A stretch of DNA of 64,000 nt, taken from assembly GCA_035489575.1 (NCBI GenBank), contig DATHJY010000009.1, forward strand, positions 5,517 through 69,516. The letters run 5' to 3'. The translations under genes and the position numbers were made by a program. This document shows, in pieces, positions 646 through 46,770 of this stretch (positions within the stretch are counted from its first letter, which is position 1; the number at the start of each line of letters is the position of its first letter). The notes beneath the pieces were generated by a model. The model made no database searches. It was not told the origin of the DNA and was given only the letters and a program-made list of their open reading frames with translations. The stretch is from Verrucomicrobiia bacterium (GTDB lineage Bacteria; Patescibacteriota; Saccharimonadia; Saccharimonadales; JAGQNK01).

Positions 646-1232
646 CGCGTCATGCAGAAATGACTCACGAAGAAGCCGCCAACGACCGCGTGATGTTCGG
701 CTTTTGGGTTTACCTGATGACCGACCTGTTGATGTTTGCCATATTGTTTGCGGTATACGCAGTACTCCACGGCAATACCATGGGCGGGCCAAGCGGCCGT
801 GATTTGTTCAAACCCCAGTTGGCTCTAGCCGAAACGCTGATCCTGCTGACCAGTAGCTTTACCGCCGGTATCGGTATGATTGCTGCCCGCCGCGGTATCA
901 AACGCCAAGTGCTGGTGTGGTTTGGCATCACCTTCCTGCTGGGGCTGGCTTTCTTGGGTATCGAGCTGTATGAATTCGCCGAATTTATCCACGAGGGTCA
1001 TACCATGACCGTTAACGCATTCCTGTCTTCATTCTTCTTGTTGGTTGGTACACACGGCCTGCATATCACCTCGGGGCTACTATGGCTAGCAGTCACGCTG
1101 GTGTTTGTCATAAAAAGAGGTCTTAACTCGCACATGGTCCGCAAGCTGGCCCTGCTCAGCCTGTTCTGGCACTTCTTAGATATTGTCTGGATATTTATCT
1201 TCACAGTGGTGTACCTGAGGGCGTTCGTATGA
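642..1232 (+). CDS. cyoC: cytochrome bo3 ubiquinol oxidase subunit III
   Basis: MTRHAEMTHEEAANDRVMFGFWVYLMTDLLMFAILF...FWHFLDIVWIFIF is typical of oxidase subunit III. The ATG at 642 overlaps the cyoB stop; the ORF track starts at 597. Confidence 0.85.
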   Translation: MTRHAEMTHEEAANDRVMFGFWVYLMTDLLMFAILFAVYAVLHGNTMGGPSGRDLFKPQLALAETLILLTSSFTAGIGMIAARRGIKRQVLVWFGITFLLGLAFLGIELYEFAEFIHEGHTMTVNAFLSSFFLLVGTHGLHITSGLLWLAVTLVFVIKRGLNSHMVRKLALLSLFWHFLDIVWIFIFTVVYLRAFV

Positions 1233-1921
1233 GCAAGACAACCCACACCCCCCACCACCAGCCAAAGGGCGAACACGGCACAACCAAGTCTTATGTTATC
1301 GGCTTTATTTTGTCCCTGATCTTTACCATCATTCCGTATCACCTAGTGGTGAACAAAGTACTAACGGGCAACACACTGCTGGCAACAATCTTGGGGATCG
1401 CAATTTTGCAGATGTTTATCCAGATATTTTTCTTTCTGCACCTGGGCCGTGGACCCAAGCCGTTTTATAACGTAGTTTTCTTCTTTGCGACAGCCGGCAT
1501 TATTGTGCTGGTCATAGGCGCTTCCTTGTTTATCATGAGCAATCTGTACCACAACATGTCACCCAGAGAGGTGGTCAAGAAACAGGCCCAAGAGGAAGGA
1601 ATATCCCAGATAGGCGGCGAAAAGACCGGTGCCTGCGGCCAGCTCCAGGACAATCACGTCGTTACCATTAGCGGAGGTATCGCTACCCCCAGCCGTATCG
1701 AAGCCCAGCAGTGCGACACCCTGACGTTCATCAATAAAGACGGCCTGGAGCGCGAGATGGTTTTTGGCCCTCACCCTAACTACCACAGCTACGGCGGAGA
1801 AGATAAAACATTGCTGGACGACGAACGCGCCGAGACCATCACCCTTAACGAATCCGGAGGGTTCATGTTCCATGACCACCTCCACCCAAGCCTCACCGGC
1901 TACCTCACCGTAGCGCCCTAG
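1229..1921 (+). CDS. cyoD: cytochrome bo3 ubiquinol oxidase subunit IV fused to a ~120 aa C-terminal cupredoxin-like domain
   Basis: The N-terminal ~110 aa resemble CyoD (KSYVIGFILSLIFTIIPY, 3 TM). The ATGA overlap with cyoC suggests coupling. The C-terminal extension is beta-rich and His-rich (FHDHLHPSLTGYLTV). Confidence 0.7.
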   Translation: MSKTTHTPHHQPKGEHGTTKSYVIGFILSLIFTIIPYHLVVNKVLTGNTLLATILGIAILQMFIQIFFFLHLGRGPKPFYNVVFFFATAGIIVLVIGASLFIMSNLYHNMSPREVVKKQAQEEGISQIGGEKTGACGQLQDNHVVTISGGIATPSRIEAQQCDTLTFINKDGLEREMVFGPHPNYHSYGGEDKTLLDDERAETITLNESGGFMFHDHLHPSLTGYLTVAP

Positions 1922-7678: not shown

Positions 7679-8569
7679 CTACAGGCGTTCCACGATCACG
7701 GGGATCGAGTATGGCCCGCGCGACTCCGAGTCAAGCGCCTCGCCCATGAACAGCTCGTGCTCGGCGTCCACCCACCGCATGAGCGGCACGTGCGTCCACG
7801 GTGCATCGTCGCGCGCCCTGATCTGCAGACCCGGAAGCCAGATACCAGGAACCAGGCGGGAGCCAGTGCGCACGTACCACTTAGGGTGCAGCGCCGCGGC
7901 AGCCAGCAGCTCGAGGCCCGGAGAACTCTCTGAACGACGGACGCTAGCCGGACTGGTGAAGACGCGACCCGTAGTGCCACCAGGCCAATGAGCGCCCAGA
8001 TCAAGCCGCACTACTCCCAGAGATGGCTGCCCCTCGACATAACGCCGGACGCCAGGCAGAAGCTGCATGCGATCACGGCCCCAGAAAAGTCCGCGCCACT
8101 CATGCACCACATCAACACCCAGGACGTCACCCATCCAGAGCCATAGCTCCTTGTAGGTTCTCTCGAAATCACCGAGCCAGATGTCAAAAGAGTAGCATGA
8201 CAGGCCATGAGAAGGATGAAGCGGCAGCTTGTCCACGACTTCCTGAAGCTGTCGGGGAGTGAACGGCCAACGGCGTACGCGAGCACGTTCCAGAAACGCA
8301 CTGGCCAGCTTTTCGTGCGAGGTGAACGCACTGGCCGGATCGAATGGCCGTAACCCCTCCTTGAAGGACAGCACGTCAACCTGTGACAGATCAACATCTT
8401 TGCCAAGCATCATCTTCAGCAGATGACCCGCTTCGATGAGGGCCTGCACTTCTTGTCTCGAGTGGCCGGCGAGAAGCTCCAATAGCCCTTTCGCTTGGCC
8501 TAAGGGCCTCCATGAGACATTCCCTTCTGTCTGCCGCAAGGATAGCCTATGTTCCCCTGGATGATCCAA
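7679..8569 (-). CDS. hypothetical protein, GC-rich tandem paralogue 2
   Basis: A 296 aa ORF that I estimate at ~35-40% identity with 6575-7381 over its full length. The exact start is uncertain; the tracked start is TTG. Confidence 0.6.
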   Translation of the reverse strand: MDHPGEHRLSLRQTEGNVSWRPLGQAKGLLELLAGHSRQEVQALIEAGHLLKMMLGKDVDLSQVDVLSFKEGLRPFDPASAFTSHEKLASAFLERARVRRWPFTPRQLQEVVDKLPLHPSHGLSCYSFDIWLGDFERTYKELWLWMGDVLGVDVVHEWRGLFWGRDRMQLLPGVRRYVEGQPSLGVVRLDLGAHWPGGTTGRVFTSPASVRRSESSPGLELLAAAALHPKWYVRTGSRLVPGIWLPGLQIRARDDAPWTHVPLMRWVDAEHELFMGEALDSESRGPYSIPVIVERL

Positions 8570-8575
8570 GAGTAA

Positions 8576-8634
8576 GTATCCTGTTCGGAAACGGCGTGCT
8601 GCTGCCTAAATTAGGCAACAAAACGCCGCTTCCA
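8576..8634 (-). promoter_or_regulatory. conserved leader block upstream of paralogue 2
   Basis: GTATCCTGTTCGGAAACGGCGTGCTGCTGCCTAAATTAGGCAACAAAACGCCGCTTCC aligns with 7441-7500. Confidence 0.45.
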
Positions 8635-8711
8635 AACGGTGTAGTACCAATATTTTAAAGTCCAAGCTAGATATTATGCAATAAATAAAACACAGATACA
8701 ATGGCAGGCAG

Positions 8712-9065
8712 TCAGGATCGCTCGACGCCTTCTGCTCGATGGCGTGGAGAATGAGGCCAGAAAACTTTGGCCACAACCAATTCTCTGGGCAGCCACCCAA
8801 AGTGCCGGCTATCTGTACTTGTCTCTGAATGGTCCCCCAGCACAAAAATCCTGTCATCCTGCAGTTGGTCTAGGCGCTTTATCTTTTCTTTGCCGTTGTG
8901 CTCAAAAATAATCACGTCGCCCGGGCTCAGCCGCATAAACCATCGCCGCCCCACGACAAACGTACCCGGGGGAAGTACGGGCAACATGCTGTGGCCATGA
9001 ATCTGCCTGACAGCCAGTGGGCGTCTACGACTTGGTGGCGGCAAAAACTTTGGCAATCTCATCAA
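8712..9065 (-). CDS. sodX: S26-family peptidase, nickel-SOD maturation protease
   Basis: GHSMLP (Ser nucleophile) and GDHSETSTDSRHFG signal-peptidase-like motifs. Lies immediately downstream of sodN and overlaps it. Confidence 0.7.
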   Translation of the reverse strand: MMRLPKFLPPPSRRRPLAVRQIHGHSMLPVLPPGTFVVGRRWFMRLSPGDVIIFEHNGKEKIKRLDQLQDDRIFVLGDHSETSTDSRHFGWLPRELVVAKVFWPHSPRHRAEGVERS

Positions 9066-9411
9066 TCAGATCTAACAGCTTCTGGCTTTCATCCACGTCA
9101 GTGATCTTTTTGACCGCACCGGCCTGCTTGGTAGCCTTCCAAAATAAATCATGCAGGTCCGGGTGCTTTTCTAGGTGCTCGGGCTTAAAGTAGTCAGTCC
9201 ACAGCACCCACAAGTGGTGCTTCACCAGTTCCAACCGCTGCTCTTTAATAAATACCGCTCGCCACCTGTCTTCTTCGTGGTCCAAGCTTTTATATTTCTC
9301 TAGTATTTTGTGCACCGACTCTGCCTCTATACGGGCCTGGGCAGGATCATACACCCCACAAGGCAAATCACAGTGAGCGTAAACCGGCTTGATAAAACTC
9401 CTTAAACGCAT
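9025..9411 (-). CDS. sodN: nickel-containing superoxide dismutase precursor
   Basis: A 12 aa leader (MRLRSFIKPVYA) precedes the Ni-hook HCDLPCGVYDP. The rest fits a four-helix-bundle length (128 aa). Confidence 0.9.
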   Translation of the reverse strand: MRLRSFIKPVYAHCDLPCGVYDPAQARIEAESVHKILEKYKSLDHEEDRWRAVFIKEQRLELVKHHLWVLWTDYFKPEHLEKHPDLHDLFWKATKQAGAVKKITDVDESQKLLDLIDEIAKVFAATKS

Positions 9412-34412: not shown

Positions 34413-37413
<3,001 letters not shown>

Positions 37414-37422
37414 GATTTTCTC

Positions 37423-38301
37423 TTACTTAGCTTCACTCATATGTCGCAACTTTGCAACGCGATCTTGCAACGGAGGGTGGGTGCTGAATAGGTTAGATAG
37501 GCCCTTACCCTTTAGCGGGTTGGCAAAAAAGAAGTGGGCCGTAGAAGCATTTTGCTTTTTGAGGGCGCTACCATGGGCTTCTATCTTTTCGAGTGCACTG
37601 GCCAGCCCCTCGGGATACCGAGTAGTTAGCGCCCCGGTGGCATCGGCCAGGTATTCCCGGCGCCTAGATATTGCCAGCTGGATAAAGACAGCTATAAGCG
37701 GTGCAATGATAGCGGCAGCGATGCCCAGTACAAAGAAGAGTGTATTGCCCCCACCCTCATCATCATTGTCCCGAAACCACACCATTCGAAGCATAAAGTC
37801 AGCAATGATGCTGACAATGGCCACCAGGGCGAAAGCAATCATGGACACCCGAATATCATAGTTTTTAATATGCCCTAATTCGTGCGCCATCACCCCTTCT
37901 AATTCGGTATCGGTCATAACGTCTAGGATGCCCGTAGTTGCAGCCACAGCTGCATGGTTAGGGTTGCGACCGGTCGCCATAGCATTGGGGGCCGGATCGT
38001 CTATGAGGTATACCTTTGGCATAGGCAAGCCATTGGTAATAGCCAGGTTCTCGACAATACGCCACAGCCGGGGGTTGTCTTTTTTGGCTATCTCTCGGGC
38101 ACCGTTAAAGGCTAGTGCCACGCTAGAGCCCACAAAATAGCTAAACAACGCATACACCCCAGCCCCCGCCAGCACATAGGGCGTGAGGGCCTGCCGGCCC
38201 ATATACAGCCCAAACAGCCAGCCCAAAACGCTTACCAGAAGTATGAACAGTACCATCAATAGTACTGTTCGTCGCTTGTTAGCCGCTATTTCTTTGTACA
38301 C
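37423..38301 (-). CDS. htpX: M48 zinc metalloprotease HtpX
   Basis: HELGHIKNYD zinc motif, 4 TM helices and the EYLADATGA region. Confidence 0.85.
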   Translation of the reverse strand: MYKEIAANKRRTVLLMVLFILLVSVLGWLFGLYMGRQALTPYVLAGAGVYALFSYFVGSSVALAFNGAREIAKKDNPRLWRIVENLAITNGLPMPKVYLIDDPAPNAMATGRNPNHAAVAATTGILDVMTDTELEGVMAHELGHIKNYDIRVSMIAFALVAIVSIIADFMLRMVWFRDNDDEGGGNTLFFVLGIAAAIIAPLIAVFIQLAISRRREYLADATGALTTRYPEGLASALEKIEAHGSALKKQNASTAHFFFANPLKGKGLSNLFSTHPPLQDRVAKLRHMSEAK

Positions 38302-38337
38302 TAGAACTTACCCTGACCAATCAGCCTGAGATTTTGC

Positions 38338-38895
38338 TTAAAATTCAACCTTAGTCGGCTTGCTAATACTTGCCATTTCGCTTTCTTCTACCTCGAAGAA
38401 TGCGCGTGCCTTAAAACCAAGCATGCCCGCAAAGATGTTAGTAGGGAAAGTTTTGACTTTGATATTAAGATCACGAGCCGATCCGTTATAGAACCGGCGA
38501 GCAGCCTGGATCTTGTCCTCGGTATCTACTAATTCTTCTTGGAGGTGCTTGAAGTTTTCGTTAGCCTTTAGGTCTGGGTAGTTTTCGGCAACCGCAAACA
38601 AACTCTTCAGCGTTTGCTCAAAGGCGTTTTCAGCCTTGGCAGTTTCTTCTACACCCTTAGCACCCATTGCTTGGGTACGGGCTTTGGTGACTTCTTCGAA
38701 TACACCCTTTTCGTGTTTGGCGTAGCCTTTGACAGCACTAACCAAATTGGGAATAAGGTCATACCGGCGTTTAAGCTGCACGGTAATGTCGCTCCAAGCC
38801 TCGTCAACTCGGACGTTGGCCCGAACAAGGCCGTTGTACATTGCAATCAAAGCGATAACAACTACCGCAATTACTGCCAGAATTATCCACATCAT
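38338..38895 (-). CDS. lemA: LemA family protein
   Basis: N-terminal TM helix plus YNGLVRANVRVDEAWSDITVQLKRRYDLIPNLV, canonical LemA. Confidence 0.85.
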   Translation of the reverse strand: MMWIILAVIAVVVIALIAMYNGLVRANVRVDEAWSDITVQLKRRYDLIPNLVSAVKGYAKHEKGVFEEVTKARTQAMGAKGVEETAKAENAFEQTLKSLFAVAENYPDLKANENFKHLQEELVDTEDKIQAARRFYNGSARDLNIKVKTFPTNIFAGMLGFKARAFFEVEESEMASISKPTKVEF

Positions 38896-38977: not shown

Positions 38978-39700
38978 TTATATATATTGTGCGATCCAGG
39001 TAGTCATATCGTCTATGTCTATGCCGGTGATGGTGTGATTGACCGCGCCGAGGTTGGTCATGGTTGCACCAGTAGCAGTCCCAAAGGCCGTTACAACACT
39101 AGGCACGCAAACAATGTCGTTAGACGAATACCATATACGAATGGGCACCGCTGCAAAAGTGGCAGTATTTACAGCTGGATTAAAATTGGCGGGCGGGGTA
39201 CCGCCGTAGGCTGCAGTCACACTGGGACCCAAACCGGACCGGTTGTTATCGATAATGTCCTGAATATCTACAGCGGGAACATGGAGAACAATAGCAGCTA
39301 CCTTGGAAATGTTAGCCCGTGCCCAATTCAGAACCGTCGTGGCACCCATGGACTGACCCAGCAATATAACCTGATCGGTACGCGCACCCATTTGGCTGTG
39401 AAAATATGTCATGGTGGCGTCCATAGCAGTCATGGCCGTGCTATTGCCCCAAGATATAACGCCTCCTGCATCGGTAGCGATAGCGGGCATGCGGTTAGTA
39501 GACGCCGCGTTGGGCGCAATCAAGCCAGAGATAGGATCTGTAAAGAAATAATCTGCCGTACCACCCGCACCATGTATCAACGCCATGCCAATTTTGGCGT
39601 CTGCATCTAGTGGGTCTAGCCGGTGCCACCACATCACATGACGCTCACCTGAAATATACTGGTCCACGCCGCGTGTCCGACACACCTGTTGGACAGCCAT
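38978..39700 (-). CDS. alpha/beta-hydrolase (esterase/lipase-like), last gene of the fibre cluster
   Basis: HGAGGT oxyanion-like motif and GQSMGA nucleophile elbow. The start lies 5 nt after the fibre-3 stop. Confidence 0.55.
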   Translation of the reverse strand: MAVQQVCRTRGVDQYISGERHVMWWHRLDPLDADAKIGMALIHGAGGTADYFFTDPISGLIAPNAASTNRMPAIATDAGGVISWGNSTAMTAMDATMTYFHSQMGARTDQVILLGQSMGATTVLNWARANISKVAAIVLHVPAVDIQDIIDNNRSGLGPSVTAAYGGTPPANFNPAVNTATFAAVPIRIWYSSNDIVCVPSVVTAFGTATGATMTNLGAVNHTITGIDIDDMTTWIAQYI

Positions 39701-39705
39701 ATTAC

Positions 39706-40386
39706 TTACGCCTCTACGGCTTTAAAGAAGCTAGGCGCAATAGACGTTGCCACAATATTGCCGCTGCCGGACGTAACGTTGGCCACCAAGCGATAAGTAT
39801 CAGGGGTATGAGGAGGTATACGTACTTCTATATAAATCTCTTCCTGCCGAATTGCCGTAGGGATAGTAACCGCGCACGCCTGAATAACTTGCAGCACAAT
39901 CGTACCAGCACTGGGCATTATTCCGACCACGACCCCAGCGCCTGCCGTGTCGTTGGTCACGTGCACTATGGCCGAAAGATATACCGGACGAACAGTATCT
40001 GGCACCGTAACCGACAAGTTGGTGATGTTAGTTACGGCAAAGCCTGGTCCAGCGCCCGTTGTAACAATTCCCAGTTGGTTAGTCGTAATCGCCGCATAGG
40101 CCAGCTCGCGACCAGACGAGTGAACGGCAGCGTCAGCAACGTGAGCGTCAAATGCCGTGGTGTTCGTTTTGGCAGTCAATCCCGGCACCGTTGGACTTGC
40201 AGACGTGCCGCCGAGGTCACCGGTTAATTGGACGACACCCTTAGCAGTCGGTGAAGCGTCGGTGGCGGCACTGGCCACTGCTGCAGTTTTTAGGCTGCCA
40301 TCGGTATTGTGAGCGGCTGCCAAGAAGTCGTTTAGGACGGCGCCCCACGTGTTCTCGTCGCCACCCGGGACTGGAAGTCGTGCCAC
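39706..40386 (-). CDS. fibre-like protein 3 (shared N-terminal module, 226 aa)
   Basis: MARLPVPGGDENTWGAVLNDFL...GVVQLTGDLGGTSASPTVPGL aligns with the N-termini of the ORFs starting at 41781 and 45145. Confidence 0.6.
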   Translation of the reverse strand: MARLPVPGGDENTWGAVLNDFLAAAHNTDGSLKTAAVASAATDASPTAKGVVQLTGDLGGTSASPTVPGLTAKTNTTAFDAHVADAAVHSSGRELAYAAITTNQLGIVTTGAGPGFAVTNITNLSVTVPDTVRPVYLSAIVHVTNDTAGAGVVVGIMPSAGTIVLQVIQACAVTIPTAIRQEEIYIEVRIPPHTPDTYRLVANVTSGSGNIVATSIAPSFFKAVEA

Positions 40387-40455
40387 TGTTTTATTTTCCT
40401 CGCTTACTACTTATGCTTTAGTGTAGCGAATATACCCCGACCTTGTCTAGAAAAG

Positions 40456-40599
40456 TTACAGGCCCAACTCTGCCTTGCGCGCTTCCATCTGCGAGATAAC
40501 TTCTACGCGCCCTTCCTCGGATAGTTTAGCCAGAGTCTCTGGCAGTTGTTGCATTTGTAGTATAAATTCGACTATTTCGGCCACCTGTTTTGGTGTCAT
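40456..40599 (-). CDS. small hypothetical protein (47 aa, absent from the ORF track)
   Basis: ATG at 40599 is preceded by AGGAGG. My translation is MTPKQVAEIVEFILQMQQLPETLAKLSEEGRVEVISQMEARKAELGL. Confidence 0.4.
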   Translation of the reverse strand: MTPKQVAEIVEFILQMQQLPETLAKLSEEGRVEVISQMEARKAELGL

Positions 40600-40614
40600 G
40601 TAAACCTCCTAGAC

Positions 40615-41781
40615 TTACCCATAGGTAATTACTATTACCGTTCCCATTCCGCCCACGCCACCATTACCCCCAACTCCCGCGCCAGTTCCAGCGCCGCCGC
40701 CTGCACCGCCGCCACCGTTGGCACCACCTGCGCCACCAGCACCACCACTGCTACCCGATGTCGTGTGTGAACCGCCACCACCGCCGCCAGAGCCACCATT
40801 AGTTCCTACGCCAGCTACACCAGTGGCACCTACGCCGCCCTGAGAAGTCGAACTAGCTCCGCCAGCCCCCGCGGGTGAAACTCCGCCCGCACCCACAAAA
40901 GCGTTAGGGCTGTTAGCCGCATCGATAGAGCGACCAGGCGCGCCGCCGCCCACATGGCCCGCACCACCAGTAGCTGCAAAGGCACCTGTGATTGCTGCTG
41001 TGCCGCTTCCTACAATCAACGAAGTAGCACCCGGGTTACCACCAAGTCCGGCACCAAAAGCAGTACCGCCAAAACCGCCACCGCCGCCACTTGCTATAAC
41101 GTACGATCCAAACGAAGAGCTACTGCCAACATTAGTACCCGTAGTAGTTGGGTCGGTACCACCTGCTCCACCTGCTCCGACGGTAACCGCTACCGTTCCC
41201 GTCAGGGCATTGGCGTCGAACTGCCCAACCACCACACCACCTGCAGCACCGCCGCCTCCACCCAACCGCACTACGCCAGAGGCAGCCGTTGCGCCCTTGC
41301 CGCCACCGCCGCCACCGCCGATTACAAACACCTCTATTACCTTGGCACCTGCCGGCTTGGTCCAGGTAGTACTGGCAACGTAGGCGTCGTAGGCCAAGAC
41401 ACCTTTTTGATTGAGGGCAGTTTGAGTTGCCGTAGAGATCGGCTTGCCAGCGTCAGATGTATTGTCCACATTTGCCAATCCCACCGCTGACTTATCCAGC
41501 GCCTGAAAGCTTTTGTCACCACGCCAGTAGTGCGCGGTCGTACCAGCCGTGATGGTGTTTTCTTTTCCGGCCAGGCCAGGCACCGTGGGACTGCCTGCAG
41601 TTCCGCCCAAGTCACCAACCAGCTGCACAATACCTTTCTTGGTTGTACTTGCGTCGGATACAGCGTCTTCAACAGCCGTCGGTTTAATAGAACCGTCAGT
41701 ATTGAAAGACTGAGACAAAAAGTCATTCAGCACATCCCCCCATGAACCATCATCACTACCCGGAACCGGAAGCCGAGCCAT
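40615..41781 (-). CDS. fibre-like protein 2 with a glycine-rich C-terminal domain (388 aa)
   Basis: Shared N-terminal module, then TWTKPAGAKVIEVFVIGGGGGGGKG...VTVGAGGAGG and long Gly/Ala/Ser tracts. Confidence 0.65.
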   Translation of the reverse strand: MARLPVPGSDDGSWGDVLNDFLSQSFNTDGSIKPTAVEDAVSDASTTKKGIVQLVGDLGGTAGSPTVPGLAGKENTITAGTTAHYWRGDKSFQALDKSAVGLANVDNTSDAGKPISTATQTALNQKGVLAYDAYVASTTWTKPAGAKVIEVFVIGGGGGGGKGATAASGVVRLGGGGGAAGGVVVGQFDANALTGTVAVTVGAGGAGGTDPTTTGTNVGSSSSFGSYVIASGGGGGFGGTAFGAGLGGNPGATSLIVGSGTAAITGAFAATGGAGHVGGGAPGRSIDAANSPNAFVGAGGVSPAGAGGASSTSQGGVGATGVAGVGTNGGSGGGGGGSHTTSGSSGGAGGAGGANGGGGAGGGAGTGAGVGGNGGVGGMGTVIVITYG

Positions 41782-41917
41782 ATCTACCCCCCAAACTATA
41801 CCCCGTTTTTCTTATGCTTATTCTACGTCCGCAACCACCCGGGTGTCTAGCTTAATAACAATTAAATAATTTCAATTCGCTAAATATGACATAGATATGC
41901 AAAAGAAATGGGTATAA

Positions 41918-42226
41918 CTATCTCTTTTTAGAGGTTGTACCCTCGAGCAGGTCGCAGGTGCGACCATAGACCAAGGGGTTATAGACTTTGCCAACGCGCT
42001 CTTTTATCAATGAGGCTTCTTCCAGGGTCAGGTCCACTTCGTTAGCGCCGTAGAGCCTGGTGCTGAGTGCATATATCTGTGCCATGACGTCTGGCGCAGG
42101 TCGGTCTTTGTCTTCAAAAGCATTTAGAGCCGTCACAAATACCCGGCGATATGTCACAGGTTCGGTACCTTCTACCAATTTTCGGTCTTCGTAATCTGTC
42201 AGTTGGTCAGTAACTTTGATACGCAT
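41918..42226 (-). CDS. hypothetical protein (102 aa) downstream of fibre-like protein 1
   Basis: An ORF with GGAGG upstream. No recognised motifs. Confidence 0.45.
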   Translation of the reverse strand: MRIKVTDQLTDYEDRKLVEGTEPVTYRRVFVTALNAFEDKDRPAPDVMAQIYALSTRLYGANEVDLTLEEASLIKERVGKVYNPLVYGRTCDLLEGTTSKKR

Positions 42227-42268
42227 ATTTGTTCCTCCAAATATATTTAGGATTATACAGCAAGTAGT

Positions 42269-45145
42269 TTAGATAACAGCCCGAGCAACTTCACGCCAGC
42301 CTTGCGTGCCGCCTATTTCGCTCAGCACCAGGGTCAGGCTATCCCCCGCCGTGGCCACAAAGTCTACTGCACCCGCCAACAGAATAGTAATGTTGGTCGT
42401 TGCCGTGGCCTGGGCATGCTTGACAGTAGGGGTAGCAGTAAACAACAAGGTAACCGTTGACCCATTTTGCCACCCGATATTAGACAGCAGATTAACCTGA
42501 GTGGTGCCGGTAATCTCAAAAACGTTACCGTCCGTACCTAGTACCAGGTTGTTGACCGACGCCACGTCTGCCCCCTGGTTGCCAAGTATTCTGCCGTCAA
42601 ACCGGGCCGTGCCAGCATCTACCCATAGCGCAAACGGGCCATTGGTGACCGAAACGTTAGCACCGGCCACGGGCGCCCCGGCGATATACACGCTGGCTAA
42701 GTTGGTAATAGTGCGAACATTGGTGGTAGAAGTCATGGTGGCTACACCAACAGAAATACCATGCTTGTTAACAAGCGTAGCAGTCTGGTTGCCCACGCTA
42801 ATGCTGACCGTCGGAATAAGGAGGCCTATGCTGTCGGTAGAAGCTCCCAAGCCGTTTGCAAGTGCAGGATGAGCAATCCTTGCCCCGACATTTGTAGTGA
42901 GCGCGCCGGTAAGCGAGGCAACATCCAAGCCGTACTGGTTGGTGAAGGTGCCGGCAAATGGGTTTATGACGTCAGTAACCGAATAGGCTGTAAATGACGT
43001 CAGTATGGACAGTGGATTAAAGATAGTAATCCCCGCCTGTACGCCATAAGCATTGGCTATAGTGGATGCACCCGAGTGAACGGTTTGAGTCTTTAGGCCA
43101 TACAGATTCGTGACGTTTCCGGAAGTTCCGTACCCGGGTGAACTAGATATATTAATAAAGTCCGTCAGTCCCCCGGTGCCAGTTGCACTGGTTTCTAGGG
43201 CGAAACCCACTACGCTGGCAATGGTCTTAGCCAATGCGGCGATTGGCTTGATCCAGAGCGGCCTAAAGATGGTGCTGGCGTTCACTCCCCCTACATTCGT
43301 AAAGGAAACGGTACCATCTATCTGAGTAAGGGCGAACTCACCCGCACTTGTTGCAACTGATTCGGTATAGTCGATACCAAACCAGCGAGCAGTATGTGTG
43401 GTGGCACGCAGAACAAACTTGTCAGCGGCAACGACCGACACCGACCCCTTGGTGCCGTTAGTCGTAGAGGCCAGTGTCAGATTCTCTGAGCTGGCAGTTC
43501 CTCCGATAAGCGCCTGGCCACCGGCCCGGCCCGCAAGCAAAGCATACTGAGTGTGGTCATCATCGGTCAGACCAGTGAGCGCCAGGCCGTGGTCCAGCGT
43601 TCCGCCACCGGCAGCGTTTTGGTGATTATGCGTGGCACTGACAAAACTAGCAATAACAGGCGTGGTGAGCGTCGGGCTTGAATACGTACCACCGGTAATG
43701 GTCTTGCCTGTGAAAGTCACTGCCGTAGGAATACCCAGGGTCGGGTTGCCCGCAACGCCATTACCGTCGGTAATAGTAATCTCATTGGCCACGCCCATGA
43801 TAGTTCGGCCAGTAAAAGTATCGGCAGCAGTCTGGGTTACTAAGCCATTGGTGTTATAGGCGGCCAAGGCCGTCAGGGTGGCATCGGTAGCCTGCGCGCC
43901 AATAGTGGCACGGGCGTCGCTGGCATTTACATCATCAATCAGTGACCGTCCAAAGGCAGTCAGGACAATTTCTTCGATATCTCCAGCTCCCGGGGTAGAA
44001 CGCCCCAGCAGCCGATCGGTCGCCGAAACATTCTGGATCTTGGCGTAGGTTACGGCGTCGTTGGCAATAGTGGCCACGGCCGATCCAGCCGTTGCAGTTA
44101 CGTCCCCTCCGGCGAGAGCCGAACGCTGGATGCCGCCAGAACCCGTGAATTCCAGGCCGCCAGAGACGGTTAGTTCCTCGACATCACCCGACGATGCAGT
44201 GTCACGCCCCAGCAACCGGTCTGTAGCAGATACATCTTGGATCTTAGCGTATGTCACGGAGCCATCTTTGACGTCTGCCGTTATGATTGGGGTTGCATCA
44301 TCGTAAATAAAATCAATGGTGGCGGTATCGGTCAGGATAAAGCCCACAGCGTCTTGGGCATCCTCGTTGACATACTGCGTTACAGTAGAAGAAAGCGCAC
44401 CACCTGTTAGCTGTAGCCCCGTACCGATCGTAATCTCTTCGACGTCGCCACTACCTCCTGCACTGCGCCCCAACAGCCGACTCGTTGCAATATTTTGGAT
44501 TTTGGCAAAAGTCACGGCGTCGTTGGCAATAGTGGCCACAGCCGAACCAGCCGTTGCTGTTACGTCTCCGCCAGTCAGGGCCGAACGTTGAATGCCACCC
44601 GAGCCAGTGAATTCTAGCCCACCAGAAACCGTCAGTTCCTCGGTATTGCCGGAACCTGCGGTGTCACGCCCCAGCAACCGGTCTGTTGCAGATATATCCT
44701 GCATTTTTGCATAAGTGATGGAATTGTCATTTACATCGGCGGTGAACGACGGCGAGCTGTCTATGTAGGTCAAGTTCACGGTAACAGTATTGGCCGCCAT
44801 TGCCCCTACTGCATCTTGGGCCATCTCGTCCGTATAGCCACCGGCAGAGGTCTGTGGCTCCCACTGGCTGCCCGCAGAGTTGTATAAAAGGACCTGGTTG
44901 TTGGTGGGCGAAGTCGGAGATACGGCGTGGCCTTGCAGCCCGGTAACTGTTGGCACACTTGCAGTACCACCCAGATCACCCGTGAGCTGCACTATTCCTA
45001 GGGCAGACGGCGAGGCATGGGGCGCGGCACTTCCAACAGCAGACGTCTTAAGCGAGCCGTCAGGATTCATCGACTGCTGCAGGAAATCGTTGAGTATATC
45101 CCCCCAGGCACCATCATCACTACCCGGATTTGGAAGTCGTGCCAC
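42269..45145 (-). CDS. fibre-like protein 1 (958 aa) with an internal 154 aa tandem duplication
   Basis: Shared N-terminal module, repeated xYAKIQxxSATDRLLGRxxxGxGxxEE motifs, and Thr/Gly/Ala/Val-rich beta-type sequence throughout. Confidence 0.7.
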   Translation of the reverse strand: MARLPNPGSDDGAWGDILNDFLQQSMNPDGSLKTSAVGSAAPHASPSALGIVQLTGDLGGTASVPTVTGLQGHAVSPTSPTNNQVLLYNSAGSQWEPQTSAGGYTDEMAQDAVGAMAANTVTVNLTYIDSSPSFTADVNDNSITYAKMQDISATDRLLGRDTAGSGNTEELTVSGGLEFTGSGGIQRSALTGGDVTATAGSAVATIANDAVTFAKIQNIATSRLLGRSAGGSGDVEEITIGTGLQLTGGALSSTVTQYVNEDAQDAVGFILTDTATIDFIYDDATPIITADVKDGSVTYAKIQDVSATDRLLGRDTASSGDVEELTVSGGLEFTGSGGIQRSALAGGDVTATAGSAVATIANDAVTYAKIQNVSATDRLLGRSTPGAGDIEEIVLTAFGRSLIDDVNASDARATIGAQATDATLTALAAYNTNGLVTQTAADTFTGRTIMGVANEITITDGNGVAGNPTLGIPTAVTFTGKTITGGTYSSPTLTTPVIASFVSATHNHQNAAGGGTLDHGLALTGLTDDDHTQYALLAGRAGGQALIGGTASSENLTLASTTNGTKGSVSVVAADKFVLRATTHTARWFGIDYTESVATSAGEFALTQIDGTVSFTNVGGVNASTIFRPLWIKPIAALAKTIASVVGFALETSATGTGGLTDFINISSSPGYGTSGNVTNLYGLKTQTVHSGASTIANAYGVQAGITIFNPLSILTSFTAYSVTDVINPFAGTFTNQYGLDVASLTGALTTNVGARIAHPALANGLGASTDSIGLLIPTVSISVGNQTATLVNKHGISVGVATMTSTTNVRTITNLASVYIAGAPVAGANVSVTNGPFALWVDAGTARFDGRILGNQGADVASVNNLVLGTDGNVFEITGTTQVNLLSNIGWQNGSTVTLLFTATPTVKHAQATATTNITILLAGAVDFVATAGDSLTLVLSEIGGTQGWREVARAVI

Positions 45146-45246
45146 TACTTGTGTCCTATATTTATCCTATTACGTTTACGGTTTATTTTAGTCCTCTCCT
45201 ATGGTTATGTCCAGATACATATAGGCTGCCAGAAGCCGTCAAAACC

Positions 45247-45474
45247 TTAGTTTGCGTTTACAGCAGTGGCGGCATGCGCCTGACCTTTCGGGTACCAATG
45301 CGTTACGGTTGCTTCTGGCGAAAGCGGCTCTACCTGAACTGGCGCTAGTTGATCATCAGCCTCACACTCGACCACACGAAGACCCAAGATCGAACCGAGT
45401 TCGGCCTGGTCTGCTTCTCCAAATTCTGGCTGTGGGGCGGGTTGTAAATCTGGTGATAAGTCTGCTAAGGACAT
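45247..45474 (-). CDS. small acidic hypothetical protein (75 aa)
   Basis: ATG at 45474 is preceded by AGGAG (MSLADLSPDLQPAPQPEFGEADQAELG...). Confidence 0.4.
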   Translation of the reverse strand: MSLADLSPDLQPAPQPEFGEADQAELGSILGLRVVECEADDQLAPVQVEPLSPEATVTHWYPKGQAHAATAVNAN

Positions 45475-45546
45475 CTTTTCTCCTAGTGTGCACAATGTGC
45501 TTATTTTTAATACCACACAAGTATTTATAGGTAATCGAAGTGCCTG

Positions 45547-46149
45547 TCAATTAAAAAAATCTTGCGGAAGGATGTCAATACAGAGGTGTACCGAGTCACG
45601 AACTGTTGTAGTAGAATGAACCACTCCCTCAGGAATAAACAAGCCATCGCCAGGTTCCAAGGCCGCTCCAGCCTCAAACTCTGGGAAACCAAATCTCTTG
45701 CTCCCCTTTAGCTGCACAGCCAGAACGGGATTGCCATCGGGGTGAGGCGGAAAAACAGCATCACCGGTCTCGGATATGTAGACACCCGCAGACACCTCAT
45801 GGGGACTGTACAACTCACCAAGCGCCACCCGCAGGCCATTAACCGCCGCGGACAGCCCTTCCACAGCACCAATGGTATAGCCGCCGTAGGTGCCCTGCCC
45901 CCTGACATCCGTCAGTTCACCTAAGTTTTTAGGGAATATGACCTTGTTTCCTGTCTGCGCAAAATTGCTATTGTACATAGACAGCGTCTGCAGACTCAAC
46001 GCCCTGAGGACCAACGCCTCTTCGTCTTCACAAAAAGCCAGACATTCGCTCACTGTATCAGGGCCAATAAGCTCCTTGAAATGAGTTGGATTCTCGGCAT
46101 GTAAAGCGTTTCTTAGCTCAGAACCAATCACAATAAATTCTACCCCCAT
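45547..46149 (-). CDS. cupin / JmjC-like putative Fe(II)-dependent oxygenase
   Basis: An HPD...H arrangement (FPPHPDGNP ... FIPEGVVHSTT) in a beta-rich ~200 aa protein. The tracked N-terminus overlaps tRNA-Leu, so Met28 is used as the start. Confidence 0.5.
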   Translation of the reverse strand: MGVEFIVIGSELRNALHAENPTHFKELIGPDTVSECLAFCEDEEALVLRALSLQTLSMYNSNFAQTGNKVIFPKNLGELTDVRGQGTYGGYTIGAVEGLSAAVNGLRVALGELYSPHEVSAGVYISETGDAVFPPHPDGNPVLAVQLKGSKRFGFPEFEAGAALEPGDGLFIPEGVVHSTTTVRDSVHLCIDILPQDFFN

Positions 46150-46187: not shown

Positions 46188-46273
46188 TGGTGCGCGGGGC
46201 GGGAATCGAACCCGCAAGCCTTGTGAGCACGACATTTTAAGTGTCGCGTGTATACCAATTCCACCACCCGCGC
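46188..46273 (-). tRNA. tRNA-Leu (anticodon TAA), class II, CCA encoded
   Basis: Hand fold: acceptor GCGCGGG/CCCGCGC, anticodon loop CT-TAA-AA, long variable arm, T-arm GCGGGTTCGATTCCCGC. Confidence 0.9.
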
Positions 46274-46286
46274 TTATCCTGCCGTA

Positions 46287-46676
46287 TTATAACAAAGCTG
46301 CTAGCTCTTGAGGTGTTTTAATCACTTTATCAATCAAGGCGTCACGGCATGGATCGCCCGTCTTGCCCGACAAAGCAAACACCGGCTTAGCCAGAGCAGT
46401 CGCATAGGCCATTTCCATGGTCACGCTTGTGCCTACATAATCGTCTTTATTATAGACAAAGCACACCTCGCTTTTCCTGATCCAGTCAAAATGCTCCAGG
46501 GTCAAACCCTTAAATAATTTCGAGGTAGCGTAATCAGACCCCACCTTTTCGTGCTCAAAGATTGGCTGCTGGATACTAGGCTCGAAAACCAGTACGCCCA
46601 AGTCCTCTAACTTTTTGCAAAAATCTGCAATTTCTTTTTTATAACGCTTAGATCCACAAACAACGACAGATTTCAT
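46287..46676 (-). CDS. hypothetical protein, possibly nucleoside 2-deoxyribosyltransferase-like
   Basis: 129 aa with a Rossmann-like start (MKSVVVCGSKRY). The family assignment is tentative. Confidence 0.35.
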   Translation of the reverse strand: MKSVVVCGSKRYKKEIADFCKKLEDLGVLVFEPSIQQPIFEHEKVGSDYATSKLFKGLTLEHFDWIRKSEVCFVYNKDDYVGTSVTMEMAYATALAKPVFALSGKTGDPCRDALIDKVIKTPQELAALL

Positions 46677-46696: not shown

Positions 46697-46770
46697 TGGA
46701 GGTGCGTACGGGTAACGCTCCCGTCTACTGGGTTTTGCAGACCCATGCCTAACTTCTCGGCCAACGCACC
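46697..46770 (-). tRNA. tRNA-Cys (anticodon GCA), CCA encoded, non-canonical T-loop
   Basis: Acceptor GGTGCGT/ACGCACC, discriminator U73 (typical of Cys), anticodon loop CT-GCA-AA. The T-loop reads AGCGTTA instead of TTCRANY. Confidence 0.7.

What the first reader, a model, noticed from the sequence alone, without database searches (positions are those of the whole stretch)
38978..46149. Stand-alone cluster of three tail-fibre-like proteins with a shared N-terminal module and swapped C-termini, each paired with a small partner ORF
Three minus-strand ORFs (958, 388 and 226 aa) begin with almost the same ~70 aa:
- MARLPNPGSDDGAWGDILNDFLQQSMNPDGSLKTSAV...GIVQLTGDLGGTASVPTVTGL
- MARLPVPGSDDGSWGDVLNDFLSQSFNTDGSIKPTAV...GIVQLVGDLGGTAGSPTVPGL
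- MARLPVPGGDENTWGAVLNDFLAAAHNTDGSLKTAAV...GVVQLTGDLGGTSASPTVPGL

After that they diverge into unrelated Thr/Gly/Ala/Val-rich, beta-type C-terminal regions. A conserved N-terminal 'adaptor' with variable distal domains is the logic of phage receptor-binding proteins and of polymorphic surface adhesins.

Each fibre gene is followed by a partner ORF of 102 aa, 47 aa and a 240 aa GxSxG esterase respectively. This recalls tail-fibre chaperone or accessory-enzyme arrangements.

No capsid, portal, terminase, tape-measure or integrase gene is present. The cluster is bounded by htpX-lemA on one side and by a cupin gene plus tRNA-Leu on the other, so it is not an ordinary prophage.

If the organism is an epibiont (inference), this could be a domesticated host-attachment or cell-surface-targeting system. 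I do not recognise the N-terminal module as a named family.
Basis: partly seen in the sequence, partly recalled or inferred. Interest (0 to 1): 0.85.

Follow-up and report, generated by a model that had tools for sequence, protein, structure and literature searches.

The report
Phage-type fibre island in a Saccharibacterium
A small parasitic soil bacterium (Saccharimonadales) keeps, at a fixed chromosomal site and under purifying selection, three phage-tail-fibre-like proteins with the same short N-terminal "cap" but different binding tips, plus an esterase; these are good untested candidates for how such bacteria recognise their hosts.

Summary
Three minus-strand genes (958, 388 and 226 aa) share a 73-aa N-terminus at 64-67% identity, then diverge completely. 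Each is followed by a 102-aa ORF, a 47-aa ORF or a 240-aa Ser-Asp-His hydrolase.

The shared module has two parts:
- An unnamed 36-aa cap (MARLPxPGxDxxxWGxxLNxFL..DGxLK) that sits at residue 1 of thousands of proteins.
- The first unit of a DUF5907 repeat.

The proteins are phage receptor-binding-type fibres:
- The 958-aa protein has DUF5907 repeats, and its family profile matches a solved cyanophage fibre.
- The 388-aa protein has a neck like actinophage minor tail proteins and a Gly_rich_2 domain.
- The 226-aa protein has a confidently predicted TNF/C1q-like lectin head.

In real siphophage contigs the capped gene lies right after the tape-measure gene. Here the locus is not a prophage. In at least seven related Saccharimonadales genomes, capped fibres sit upstream of lemA-htpX-ligA, and in four of them immediately downstream of tRNA-Leu(taa). 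Fibre numbers and types vary between genomes. dN/dS is about 0.1, with dN 3-8 times that of housekeeping genes. Esterases recur beside or fused to capped fibres.

The best reading is a domesticated, fast-evolving fibre set for binding another cell's envelope. Function and export are untested, and none of the proteins has a signal peptide.

The parts
46188..46273 (-). tRNA-Leu(taa), the upstream boundary of the fibre island. tRNA-Cys at 46697-46770 and a conserved 129-aa gene at 46287-46676 lie beyond it.
   Evidence: ARAGORN found it. The same tRNA-Cys/tRNA-Leu(taa) pair immediately precedes the fibre genes in relatives L083, L084 and L060.
45547..46149 (-). JmjC-type cupin of about 200 aa, present only in this genome between tRNA-Leu and the first fibre gene. 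Whether it belongs to the system is uncertain.
   Evidence: Pfam JmjC_2 at 1.3e-9, and PHROG 4992 and 8014 at 5e-9 and 2e-8. It is absent from the syntenic loci L083, L084, L085 and L060. The only phage match is weak.
45247..45474 (-). Acidic 75-aa ORF, window-specific, function unknown.
   Evidence: It is called as a gene on the identical Logan contig. It has no homologue in any fetched locus.
45185..45213 (-). Promoter-like site (TGGACA-17-TAAAAT) 40 nt upstream of the 958-aa fibre gene.
   Evidence: It matches the consensus at 10 of 12 positions. The number of sites in the region is not above the shuffled expectation, so this is weak evidence.
42269..45145 (-). fib958, the large fibre. Layout: cap (aa 1-36, nt 45038-45145); first DUF5907-like unit (aa 37-73); DUF5907 repeat shaft (about aa 100-470, including a 262-nt direct repeat at 44020-44281 and 44482-44743); beta-rich C-terminal region of about 480 aa with no named domain.
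   Evidence: - Pfam DUF5907: 5 stretches, 86.8 bits against a cutoff of 27.
- The DNA repeat is reported.
- A profile of the family matches the solved fibre gp28 of cyanophage P-SCSP1u (8i4m) at E 1.9e-4 over about 400 positions.
- Orthologues of 913, 926, 714 and 758 aa exist in relatives. They differ mainly in repeat number, and the C-terminal 600 aa are 62-69% identical.
- The AF2 monomer model is poor (pLDDT 52).
41918..42226 (-). p102, a small charged protein ending in a Lys/Arg tail, encoded 42 nt after fib958 behind a strong Shine-Dalgarno sequence.
   Evidence: Homologues that are 62-80% identical follow the large fibre directly in L083, L084 and L085; one also occurs in L007. There was no Pfam, PHROG, NCBIfam, PADLOC or PDB match.
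41820..41849 (-). Promoter-like site (TAGACA-18-TAGAAT) upstream of fib388.
   Evidence: It matches the consensus at 10 of 12 positions. This is weak evidence.
40615..41781 (-). fib388. Layout: cap plus DUF5907-like unit (aa 1-73); neck like actinophage minor tail proteins (aa about 70-145, nt 41347-41574); glycine-rich C-terminal domain (aa 137-384, nt 40630-41373).
   Evidence: - Pfam Gly_rich_2: 31.5 bits against a cutoff of 24.3.
- PHROG 863 at 2e-21, plus several other tail fibre and minor tail PHROGs.
- tblastn found 75 phage records, of which 73 are phages of Actinomycetota, mostly annotated as minor tail protein. Identity is 48-72% over aa 70-145.
- The close relative L113 has an 81.5% identical copy.
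40456..40599 (-). p47, a 47-aa helical-looking ORF 15 nt after fib388, with a strong Shine-Dalgarno sequence.
   Evidence: It is conserved at 89% identity in the same position in L113, with dN/dS 0.10. It has no family match.
39706..40386 (-). fib226, the short fibre. Layout: cap plus DUF5907-like unit (aa 1-73); neck helix (aa 76-88); TNF/C1q-like jelly-roll head (aa 94-226, nt 39709-40107).
   Evidence: - AF2 with a 50-sequence alignment: mean pLDDT 83.8, with the head at pLDDT 90-98.
- Foldseek against PDB: Chlamydia Pgp3 C-domain, the trimeric TNF-like lectins PLTL and BC2L-C-Nt (target TM-score 0.7), the cyanophage short-tail-fibre carbohydrate-binding domain and the phi812 spike knob.
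- Foldseek against BFVD: many Caudovirales tail proteins, including a Microbacterium phage minor tail protein.
- Copies 84-86% identical exist in other samples.
38978..39700 (-). est240, an alpha/beta-hydrolase with a Ser117 (GQSMG)-Asp195-His222 triad, encoded 5 nt after fib226.
   Evidence: - Pfam Hydrolase_4: 32.2 bits against a cutoff of 27.
- The triad is invariant in an alignment that includes the Gordonia phage Tangerine gp25 esterase.
- All 19 phage matches are Gordonia phages, where the gene lies in the virion structural module.
- Homologous hydrolases lie directly downstream of capped fibres in L113, L014, L038, L007 and L039.
37423..38895 (-). lemA (38338-38895) and htpX (37423-38301), the conserved downstream boundary. 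They are housekeeping genes, not part of the system.
   Evidence: Pfam LemA and Peptidase_M48. They are 74-97% identical and syntenic in L083, L084, L085, L060, L039 and L113.

Best explanation
This is a chromosomal 'fibre island' of a Saccharimonadales (Saccharibacteria/CPR) bacterium: a set of domesticated phage-type receptor-binding fibres.

Architecture (shown):
- Each fibre starts with the same 36-aa cap plus one DUF5907 unit.
- It continues as a shaft or neck.
- It ends in a different distal domain: an unnamed beta-rich domain, a glycine-rich domain like those of actinophage tail proteins, or a TNF/C1q-like lectin head.

Evolution (shown):
- The island sits at a fixed site upstream of lemA-htpX-ligA. 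In four of the related genomes tRNA-Leu(taa) lies directly upstream of it.
- It is inherited vertically and kept under purifying selection.
- It evolves faster than its neighbours and changes its fibre complement between lineages.

Mechanism (inferred):
- The cap docks each homotrimer onto one common anchor. In phages that anchor is the tail tip, because the capped gene follows the tape-measure gene. In the cell it is unknown.
- The variable tips bind glycans on another cell's envelope, most plausibly the actinobacterial host of this epibiont.
- The adjacent Ser-Asp-His esterase removes acyl groups from that envelope, as receptor-modifying tail enzymes do.
- The small ORFs p102 and p47 act as fibre-specific assembly factors or accessory subunits.

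Confidence by layer: about 0.8 that this is a functional, non-prophage, phage-derived fibre locus; about 0.4 that its job is attachment to or recognition of a host cell.
For: - Fibre nature: DUF5907, Gly_rich_2 and several tail fibre/minor tail PHROGs. The fib958 family profile matches the solved cyanophage fibre 8i4m. fib226 has a confident TNF-like head, a fold whose top PDB matches are trimers. Relatives with the same cap carry Collar, Gp10_C, BppL_N, Phage_tail_C, PTR and CBM_5_12 domains.
- Cap as a docking module: in hits that include it, it nearly always starts at or near residue 1. In the phage contigs L090 and L099 the capped gene directly follows the tape-measure gene. Six of 19 viral contigs have a 767-900 aa gene just upstream of it. 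DUF5907 shafts also occur behind a different N-terminal adaptor, Mtd_N.
- Not a prophage: no hallmark genes. The same site is occupied in at least seven related genomes with different fibre sets. Neighbours of capped genes in 75 genomic loci are housekeeping genes, lectins and esterases. No viral structural protein has a homologue there.
- Functional: dN/dS is 0.10-0.12 for the fibres, 0.10 for p47 and 0.04 for the esterase, against 0.02-0.03 for lemA, ligA and htpX. Fibre dN is about 3-8 times the housekeeping value.
- Esterase link: hydrolases lie next to or are fused to capped fibres in the window, L113, L014, L038, L007, L039 and L084; BD-FAE esterases lie next to them in 3 more loci. The catalytic triad is invariant.
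- Link to phages of Actinomycetota.
- Saccharibacteria are epibionts of Actinobacteria, and their growth on the host needs surface adhesins (PMC10633639).
Against: - None of the six proteins has a signal peptide, lipobox or membrane segment. Capped relatives also start at residue 1, so the export route and the cellular anchor are unknown.
- No experiment or expression data exist.
- The trimer state is inferred from folds and homology, not modelled. The fib958 monomer model is poor.
- Phages of Actinomycetota are over-represented in GenBank (my own knowledge), which weakens that link.
- The annotation tables for the cultured Saccharibacterium Southlakia hold no 'tail fiber' or 'DUF5907' entry, so the family may be missing from the experimentally tractable strains.
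- p102 is more conserved than its fibre, and in L007 it is not adjacent to one. That fits a fibre-tip chaperone poorly.
Confidence: 0.5

Rival explanations
1. The fibres act in trans on phage or phage-like particles. Being leaderless and cytoplasmic, they would be loaded through the cap onto the tail tips of a phage or phage-like particle encoded elsewhere in the genome. This could serve as alternative host-range cassettes. Alternatively they could be loaded onto an infecting cap-compatible phage and spoil its virions, acting as a decoy defence.
For:
- No signal peptides are present.
- The esterase homologue is a structural-module gene in Gordonia phages.
- Viral contigs with caps span GC 0.34-0.70, so cap-using phages exist for many hosts.
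Against: - No tail, baseplate or capsid gene was found in the 64 kb window, about 8 kb beyond its left edge, or within 10 kb of 76 genomic capped loci.
- Several scattered capped loci occur per roughly 1-Mb genome.
- A pure decoy would not need diverse, conserved binding heads and an active esterase.
- There is no PADLOC match.
Confidence: 0.25
2. The cluster is an inert remnant of a degraded prophage that integrated next to tRNA-Leu. Only the tail-fibre end survives, without function.
For: - It lies next to a tRNA gene.
- Its protein families are phage-derived.
- Gene content at the site varies between genomes.
Against: - dN/dS is about 0.1 for all fibre genes and p47, and all ORFs are intact.
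- The fibre and p102 are retained at the same site in genomes whose LigA is only about 70% identical.
- The three N-modules are saturated at synonymous sites but conserved in protein.
- There are no att-like repeats and no integrase.
Confidence: 0.05
3. The cluster is part of an ordinary, complete prophage or a tailocin/contractile injection system whose other genes lie nearby.
For: Only the tail-fibre-like identity of the proteins.
Against: - The flanks are lemA, htpX, ligA, tRNAs and metabolic genes, in the window and in all syntenic relatives.
- No sheath, tube, baseplate, portal, capsid or terminase match was found.
Confidence: 0.02

Closest known systems
Tail-spike/fibre proteins encoded right after the tape-measure gene in uncultured siphophages (IMG/VR contigs such as UViG_3300006028_000018 = L090 and UViG_3300026557_000082 = L099), and capped proteins of Streptomyces phages BRock and GiJojo
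   Same: They carry the same 36-aa N-terminal cap at residue 1, followed by a fibre or spike body with tail-spike PHROG matches.
   Different: In the IMG/VR contigs there is one capped gene per phage, placed inside a full virion module (shown for L090 and L099). In BRock and GiJojo the capped gene lies inside the tRNA array instead. Here there are three capped genes with no virion genes, at a conserved chromosomal site, inherited vertically.
Minor tail proteins of phages of Actinomycetota with glycine-rich C-terminal domains (Pfam Gly_rich_2; phages of Mycobacterium, Arthrobacter, Gordonia and Rhodococcus), and the Gordonia phage structural-module esterase (Tangerine gp25)
   Same: The fib388 neck is 48-72% identical to these proteins and fib388 passes the Gly_rich_2 threshold. 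est240 shares fold, size and catalytic triad with gp25.
   Different: Similarity is limited to modules. The phage proteins lack the cap, and the genomic context is cellular.
Bdellovibrio bacteriovorus MAT (mosaic adhesive trimer) fibres (PMC10769870)
   Same: Both are families of chromosomally encoded, phage-tail-fibre-like proteins in a bacterium that lives on other bacteria. Both have an invariant N-terminal domain thought to bind an unknown element of the producer, and varied C-terminal adhesive tips.
   Different: There is no sequence relationship. MAT proteins have a signal peptide, an N-domain of about 130 aa and often an S74 chaperone-protease. The proteins here are leaderless, have a 36-aa cap and have no S74 domain. 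The resemblance is in how they may work, not in membership.
Bordetella phage BPP-1 Mtd-type fibres (Mtd_N adaptor, PF18454)
   Same: DUF5907 shafts homologous to fib958 occur behind an Mtd_N-type N-terminus in other proteins. This shows that N-terminal adaptors are interchangeable docking modules. That PF18454 is the Mtd N-terminal domain is my own knowledge.
   Different: The window proteins carry the MARLP cap, not Mtd_N, and no diversity-generating retroelement was noticed.
Trimeric TNF/C1q-like lectins and heads (Burkholderia BC2L-C N-domain, Photorhabdus PLTL, Chlamydia Pgp3 C-domain, cyanophage A-1(L) short-tail-fibre carbohydrate-binding domain)
   Same: The fib226 head has this fold (Foldseek E 1e-6 to 1e-5, target TM-score up to 0.73).
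   Different: Sequence identity is only 12-18%. The ligand is unknown and the N-terminal part is different.

Membership tests
Phage tail fibre / receptor-binding protein (structural class) | Sequence or profile homology to known tail fibre, tail spike or minor tail families | tested here: met
   DUF5907, Gly_rich_2 and tail fibre/minor tail PHROGs; minor tail proteins of phages of Actinomycetota; solved cyanophage fibre 8i4m.
Phage tail fibre / receptor-binding protein (structural class) | Homotrimeric fibre architecture with a distal binding domain | tested here: inconclusive
   fib226 has a confident TNF/C1q-like head, a fold whose top PDB matches are trimers, plus a neck helix. No multimer modelling was possible, and the fib958 monomer model is poor.
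Phage tail fibre / receptor-binding protein (structural class) | Encoded within a virion structural module and assembled onto a tail | tested here: not met
   The window and the syntenic loci hold no virion genes. Physical assembly cannot be tested here.
Prophage | Integrase, terminase, portal, capsid, tape measure and att repeats | tested here: not met
   No matches. No att-like direct repeats. The flanks are housekeeping genes in all relatives.
Tailocin / contractile injection system | Sheath, tube and baseplate genes next to the fibre genes | tested here: not met
   None found in the window or about 8 kb beyond its left edge. The rest of the genome was not seen.
Pfam DUF5907 (PF19264) | Score above the gathering threshold of 27 bits | tested here: met
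   fib958 scores 86.8 bits with 5 repeats. fib226 scores only 19.8 bits, below threshold, and fib388 has no hit, although both carry the first 25-30 residues of the repeat.
Pfam Gly_rich_2 (PF21722) | Score above the gathering threshold of 24.3 bits | tested here: met
   fib388 scores 31.5 bits over aa 137-384.
Bdellovibrio MAT fibre family | Signal peptide followed by the conserved ~130-aa beta-rich N-domain; S74 chaperone-protease in many members | tested here: not met
   No hydrophobic N-terminus, no S74 or other shared domain, and the cap is only 36 aa. The defining features are taken from PMC10769870.
Tail fibre assembly/chaperone proteins (for p102 and p47) | Small gene immediately downstream of the fibre gene | tested here: met
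   The gaps are 42 and 15 nt, with strong Shine-Dalgarno sequences. The position is conserved in L083, L084, L085 and L113.
Tail fibre assembly/chaperone proteins (for p102 and p47) | Homology to a known chaperone family, or binding to the fibre tip | tested here: not met
   No Pfam, PHROG, NCBIfam or PDB match. There is one weak phage match. Binding cannot be tested here.
Alpha/beta-hydrolase esterase (est240) | Fold match plus a Ser (GxSxG)-Asp-His triad | tested here: met
   Hydrolase_4 scores 32.2 bits against a cutoff of 27. S117, D195 and H222 are invariant in 6 homologues, including a phage esterase. The substrate is unknown.
Sec/Tat-exported or wall-anchored surface adhesin | N-terminal signal peptide, lipobox, Tat motif, transmembrane segment or sortase signal | tested here: not met
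   The ORFs cannot be extended upstream. No hydrophobic N-region or transmembrane segment was found by a crude hydropathy scan. No dedicated signal-peptide predictor was available.
Known anti-phage defence systems | Match to a PADLOC model | tested here: not met
   No match for 9 proteins of the locus.

The most novel reading that the evidence does not exclude
Saccharibacteria may have captured the receptor-binding hardware of phages that infect their own actinobacterial hosts: capped fibres with lectin or glycine-rich tips, plus envelope esterases. They would maintain these as a multi-locus, fast-evolving host-recognition organelle. The 36-aa cap would be a universal plug that docks leaderless trimers onto an unknown export or anchor structure, for example the type IV pilus or the unusual type IV secretion system. 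Fibre repertoire would then set the host range of these epibionts.
Probability: 0.3. Interest if true: 0.85.

Novelty: new variant of a known kind. Interest (0 to 1): 0.62.

Why it matters
How ultrasmall CPR/Saccharibacteria epibionts choose and grip their hosts is an open question. Type IV pili and a few adhesins are implicated, but no specificity determinants are known.

This locus and its family give concrete, testable candidates:
- The proteins are modular and phage-like, with recognisable glycan-binding heads and partner esterases.
- They are present in several copies per roughly 1-Mb genome.
- They are conserved in position but evolve faster than their neighbours.

The work also defines an uncharacterised 36-aa N-terminal cap. 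The full 73-aa module profile found 6,953 protein clusters in the representative library, 2,171 of them at E<=1e-10. The cap is shared by phage tail-tip proteins and cellular genes, and its docking partner is unknown.

If the function is confirmed, it would parallel the Bdellovibrio MAT fibres. It would then be a second, independent case of a bacterium that lives on other bacteria using phage-type fibres.

Tried and rejected
- AF2 model of fib958 (60-sequence alignment): mean pLDDT 52 and pTM 0.31. It was too poor for a fold search and was not used.
- PDB sequence and profile searches found nothing for the cap (A7, A2), p102 (A5), est240 or the fib226 family.
- tblastn against phages gave only 3 weak matches for fib958 and none for fib226. 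p102 and the cupin gave one weak match each.
- PADLOC gave no match.
- Literature: no paper mentions DUF5907, and none was found that links Saccharibacteria or Patescibacteria with tail-fibre-like proteins.
- The Southlakia Tn-seq and annotation tables hold no 'tail fiber' or 'DUF5907' entry, so no essentiality data could be borrowed.
- The listing of cluster members returned no organism names.
- The search for att-like repeats or a duplicated tRNA end around the island found none.
- Promoter and terminator scans were not above the shuffled expectation.
- The first homology search with the 73-aa profile returned only short proteins of 128 aa or less.
- Two edge look-ups meant to widen the context added little.
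- Rejected readings: ordinary prophage, tailocin and decaying remnant (see the rival explanations). A simple Sec-exported adhesin is also rejected, because no signal peptides are present.

Full report
**1.

The minus strand carries six genes in a row:

| Gene | Coordinates | Length |
|---|---|---|
| fib958 | 42269-45145 | 958 aa |
| p102 | 41918-42226 | 102 aa |
| fib388 | 40615-41781 | 388 aa |
| p47 | 40456-40599 | 47 aa |
| fib226 | 39706-40386 | 226 aa |
| est240 | 38978-39700 | 240 aa |

- The first 73 residues of the three large proteins are 64-67% identical, with 40 invariant columns.
- tblastn E-values between them are 1e-21 to 1e-30, and no fourth copy exists in the window.
- After about residue 75 they are unrelated.
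- At DNA level the modules are 59-64% identical, with third codon positions at 30-42%. They are old paralogues kept similar by selection on the protein.
- The flanks are as described: lemA and htpX below; a JmjC-type cupin, a 75-aa ORF and tRNA-Leu(taa) above.
- All six genes have plausible Shine-Dalgarno sequences.

**2. What the shared module is**

A profile of the 73 aa found 6,953 cluster representatives (E<=1e-3) among 1.84 billion proteins, 2,171 of them at E<=1e-10. The matches split the module in two.

- Positions 1 to about 36 (MARLPxPGxDxxxWGxxLNxFL..HNxDGxLK) nearly always match at or near residue 1 of the target. Of the 149 best new representatives, 104 start with this cap.
- Positions about 35-73 recur internally and repeatedly. 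They correspond to the first 25-30 residues of Pfam DUF5907.
- Orthologues of fib958 can lack the second part altogether.
- The cap itself matches no Pfam, NCBIfam or PDB entry.
The 73-aa unit is a cap plus one repeat.

**3. The proteins are phage-type fibres**

- fib958 has five DUF5907 stretches (86.8 bits).
  - A 262-nt internal DNA repeat marks the shaft.
  - A profile of its family matches the solved fibre gp28 of cyanophage P-SCSP1u (8i4m, E 1.9e-4, about 400 positions).
  - The AF2 monomer model was poor (pLDDT 52), so the C-terminal 480 aa remain uncharacterised.
- fib388 passes Gly_rich_2 and matches PHROG 863 (2e-21) and several tail fibre and minor tail PHROGs.
  - Residues 70-145 match 75 phage records at 48-72% identity.
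  - 73 of those are phages of Mycobacterium, Arthrobacter, Gordonia or Rhodococcus, mostly annotated as minor tail protein.
- fib226 folds confidently (pLDDT 83.8): a cap helix, a neck helix and a beta-sandwich head at pLDDT 90-98.
  - The head is a TNF/C1q-like jelly roll. It is similar to the Chlamydia Pgp3 C-domain, the trimeric lectins PLTL and BC2L-C, a cyanophage short-tail-fibre carbohydrate-binding domain and a phage spike knob.
  - It also resembles many Caudovirales tail proteins.
- Other capped proteins carry Collar, Gp10_C, BppL_N, Phage_tail_C, PTR and CBM_5_12 domains. NCBI names one 'tail fiber protein [Ca. Saccharimonadales]'.

**4. Where the cap occurs**

- A broader cap profile found 25 IMG/VR viral contigs (GC 0.34-0.70), each with one capped gene.
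- In L090 (from a 41-kb contig) and L099 (from a 43.6-kb contig) the order is major head, major tail, tape measure, then the capped protein, which matches tail-spike PHROGs. The tape measure matches PHROG 991 at 1e-52 and 2e-34.
- In 6 of 19 contigs a 767-900 aa gene lies just upstream of the capped gene.
- Streptomyces phages BRock and GiJojo also have a capped gene, but inside their tRNA array.
- DUF5907 shafts also occur behind a different N-terminal adaptor of the Mtd_N type.
- Together this marks the cap as an interchangeable N-terminal docking module of phage tail-tip proteins. The docking itself is inferred.
- In a scan of one genome per species, 224 loci encoded a relative. Of the best 76 loci, 62 are labelled Saccharibacteria or Saccharimonadales and 5 are other Patescibacteria (2 'Patescibacteria group', 1 each Peribacteria, Woesebacteria and Parcubacteria). 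Several genomes have 2-4 capped genes spread over different loci. The ranking favours relatives of the query.

**5. Not a prophage but a conserved island**

- Around the 76 genomic loci the recurrent neighbours are tatC, tatA, dnaK/grpE/hrcA, lepA, ftsH, nusA, ABC transporters, Laminin_G_3 lectins and esterases. No phage hallmark recurs.
- None of the viral structural proteins has a homologue there.
- The window's housekeeping genes are 60-81% identical to those of Saccharibacteria MAGs. The NCBI label 'Verrucomicrobiae' is therefore probably wrong.

At the window's own site, related genomes show the following arrangements:

| Genome | Gene order at the site |
|---|---|
| L083 | tRNA-Cys, 129-aa gene, tRNA-Leu(taa), 913-aa fibre, 103-aa partner, lemA, htpX, 320-aa gene, ligA |
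| L084 | tRNA-Cys, tRNA-Leu(taa), 639-aa capped protein with a fused SGNH esterase, 714-aa fibre, 104-aa partner, lemA... |
| L085 | M28 peptidase, 926-aa fibre, 105-aa partner, lemA... |
| L060 | tRNA-Cys, tRNA-Leu(taa), 324-aa capped fibre, 191-aa protein, lemA... |
| L039 | capped 346-aa fibre, alpha/beta hydrolase, GDSL esterase, 231-aa protein, lemA... |
| L113 (close relative) | [387 aa], p47, 226-aa fibre, esterase, lemA... |

- Window-only additions, relative to the more distant genomes:
  - the cupin and orf75;
  - the fib388-p47-fib226-est240 block, which is shared with L113.
- Large-fibre orthologues differ mainly in the number of DUF5907 repeats.

**6. The genes are functional and evolve fast**

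Window versus L113, by Nei-Gojobori:

| Gene | dN/dS | dN |
|---|---|---|
| fib388 | 0.098 | 0.121 |
| fib226 | 0.122 | 0.101 |
| p47 | 0.10 | 0.058 |
| est240 | 0.041 | 0.032 |
| lemA | 0.023 | 0.016 |
| ligA | 0.023 | 0.023 |
| htpX | 0.034 | 0.038 |

- The fibres are under clear purifying selection, but change amino acids about 3-8 times faster than their neighbours.
- This argues against a decaying remnant and fits interaction proteins.

**7. The partners**

- p102 is 62-80% identical in four other genomes and directly follows the large fibre in three of them.
  - It is more conserved than the fibre. In L007 it is 5 kb away from a fibre with a different C-terminus.
  - A tip-chaperone role is therefore only positional.
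- p47 is conserved in L113 (89%).
- est240 has an invariant Ser117-Asp195-His222 triad.
  - Its only phage relatives are esterases of 19 Gordonia phages, encoded in the virion structural module.
  - Hydrolases follow or are fused to capped fibres in at least six other loci, and BD-FAE esterases neighbour three more.
  - The pairing of fibre and esterase is therefore a recurrent design.

**8. Mechanism and its weak point**

- The most economical reading:
  - Cap-docked trimeric fibres with varied glycan-binding tips, helped by an envelope esterase, bind another cell. For an epibiont of Actinobacteria (PMC10633639) that cell is most plausibly the host.
  - The closest functional parallel is the Bdellovibrio MAT fibre family (PMC10769870).
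- The weak point:
  - None of the six proteins has a signal peptide or membrane segment, and the ORFs cannot be extended upstream. MAT proteins, by contrast, are Sec-exported.
  - So either a non-classical export route and an unknown anchor exist, or the fibres act inside the cell on cap-compatible phage tails. In the second case they would serve as spare host-range cassettes or as decoys.
  - No tail genes were seen in the window, about 8 kb beyond its left edge, or within 10 kb of 76 capped loci. The rest of this genome was not available.

**9. Novelty**

- I found no paper describing this cap family, DUF5907 or tail-fibre-like proteins in Saccharibacteria.
- The kind of system is known from Bdellovibrio: phage-type fibres domesticated by a bacterium that lives on other bacteria.
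- This variant differs in being leaderless, in its 36-aa cap shared with phage tail tips, in its esterase partners and in its CPR host. It is not yet described.
- Function remains inferred.

Noticed in passing
window 39706-45145; L001 and L113: Other assemblies of the same or a close organism break at this locus. ENA contig k141_400358 ends 75 nt upstream of fib226, and Logan contig L113 starts inside the island. The repeated cap-coding DNA probably fragments short-read assemblies, so such islands may be under-represented in MAGs.
   Followed up: partly
whole window: NCBI labels these proteins (VK694_03920, VK694_03930, VK694_03940) as 'Verrucomicrobiae bacterium'. However, the window's housekeeping genes are 60-81% identical to genes of Saccharibacteria/Saccharimonadales MAGs, and synteny is shared with them. 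The taxonomic label is probably wrong.
   Followed up: partly
window 58-1921 and 9025-9411: The left edge holds the end of a haem-copper oxidase operon (COX1, COX3 and COX4_pro). A nickel superoxide dismutase with the HCDLPCG hook lies at 9025-9411. These are signs of an aerobic lifestyle, unusual for CPR bacteria.
   Followed up: no
window 45247-46149: A JmjC-type cupin (PHROG 4992 and 8014 matches, and a weak match to a Sinorhizobium jumbo phage) and an acidic 75-aa ORF are inserted between tRNA-Leu(taa) and fib958 only in this genome. No att-like repeats were found. Any role, for example in fibre modification, is unknown.
   Followed up: partly
genome loci such as L062 and L067 (e.g. L067:552-3065): In a subgroup of Saccharibacteria, capped genes lie next to tatC (9-16 loci), tatA and a 58-89 aa peptide with a Tat-signal-like motif (KKMTRAEFLGLIGASAL). 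Often a glycosyltransferase and a 151-aa partner are present too. This is a possible hint about export or a different accessory set, and it is not present in the window.
   Followed up: no
proteins P0376, P0378, P0332, P0368 and P0390: DUF5907 shaft proteins with an Mtd_N-type N-terminus (MSFGRFQIRRDTAANWTS...) lie on contigs of up to about 43.9 kb. One of them, P0378, is on 13 contigs. These are probably complete phage genomes that use a different adaptor on the same shaft.
   Followed up: no
window 36451-37413: The conserved 320-aa membrane protein between htpX and ligA evolves as fast as the fibres (87% identity to L113, dN/dS 0.096). It has no Pfam match.
   Followed up: no
L081 (Streptomyces phage BRock) 7791-8738; L082 (GiJojo) 7956-9398: In these 112-115 kb Streptomyces phages the capped gene (annotated as collagen-repeat protein or hypothetical protein) sits inside the large tRNA array, far from the annotated tail genes.
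   Followed up: no
L100 (IMGVR_UViG_3300043331_000441, 130 kb): This 'viral' contig carries a capped gene and also proteins with full-length matches to Saccharibacteria genome loci (for example 41.6% identity over 368 aa to L070). It may be a Saccharibacteria genomic fragment or a large element of that lineage.
   Followed up: no
L007 (DATHJH010000022.1, labelled Limnocylindria): This contig holds a 1026-aa capped fibre, a 790-aa protein with an est240-like domain and a p102 homologue at 70% identity. It looks like Saccharimonadales-type DNA binned into a Chloroflexota MAG, or a horizontal transfer.
   Followed up: partly
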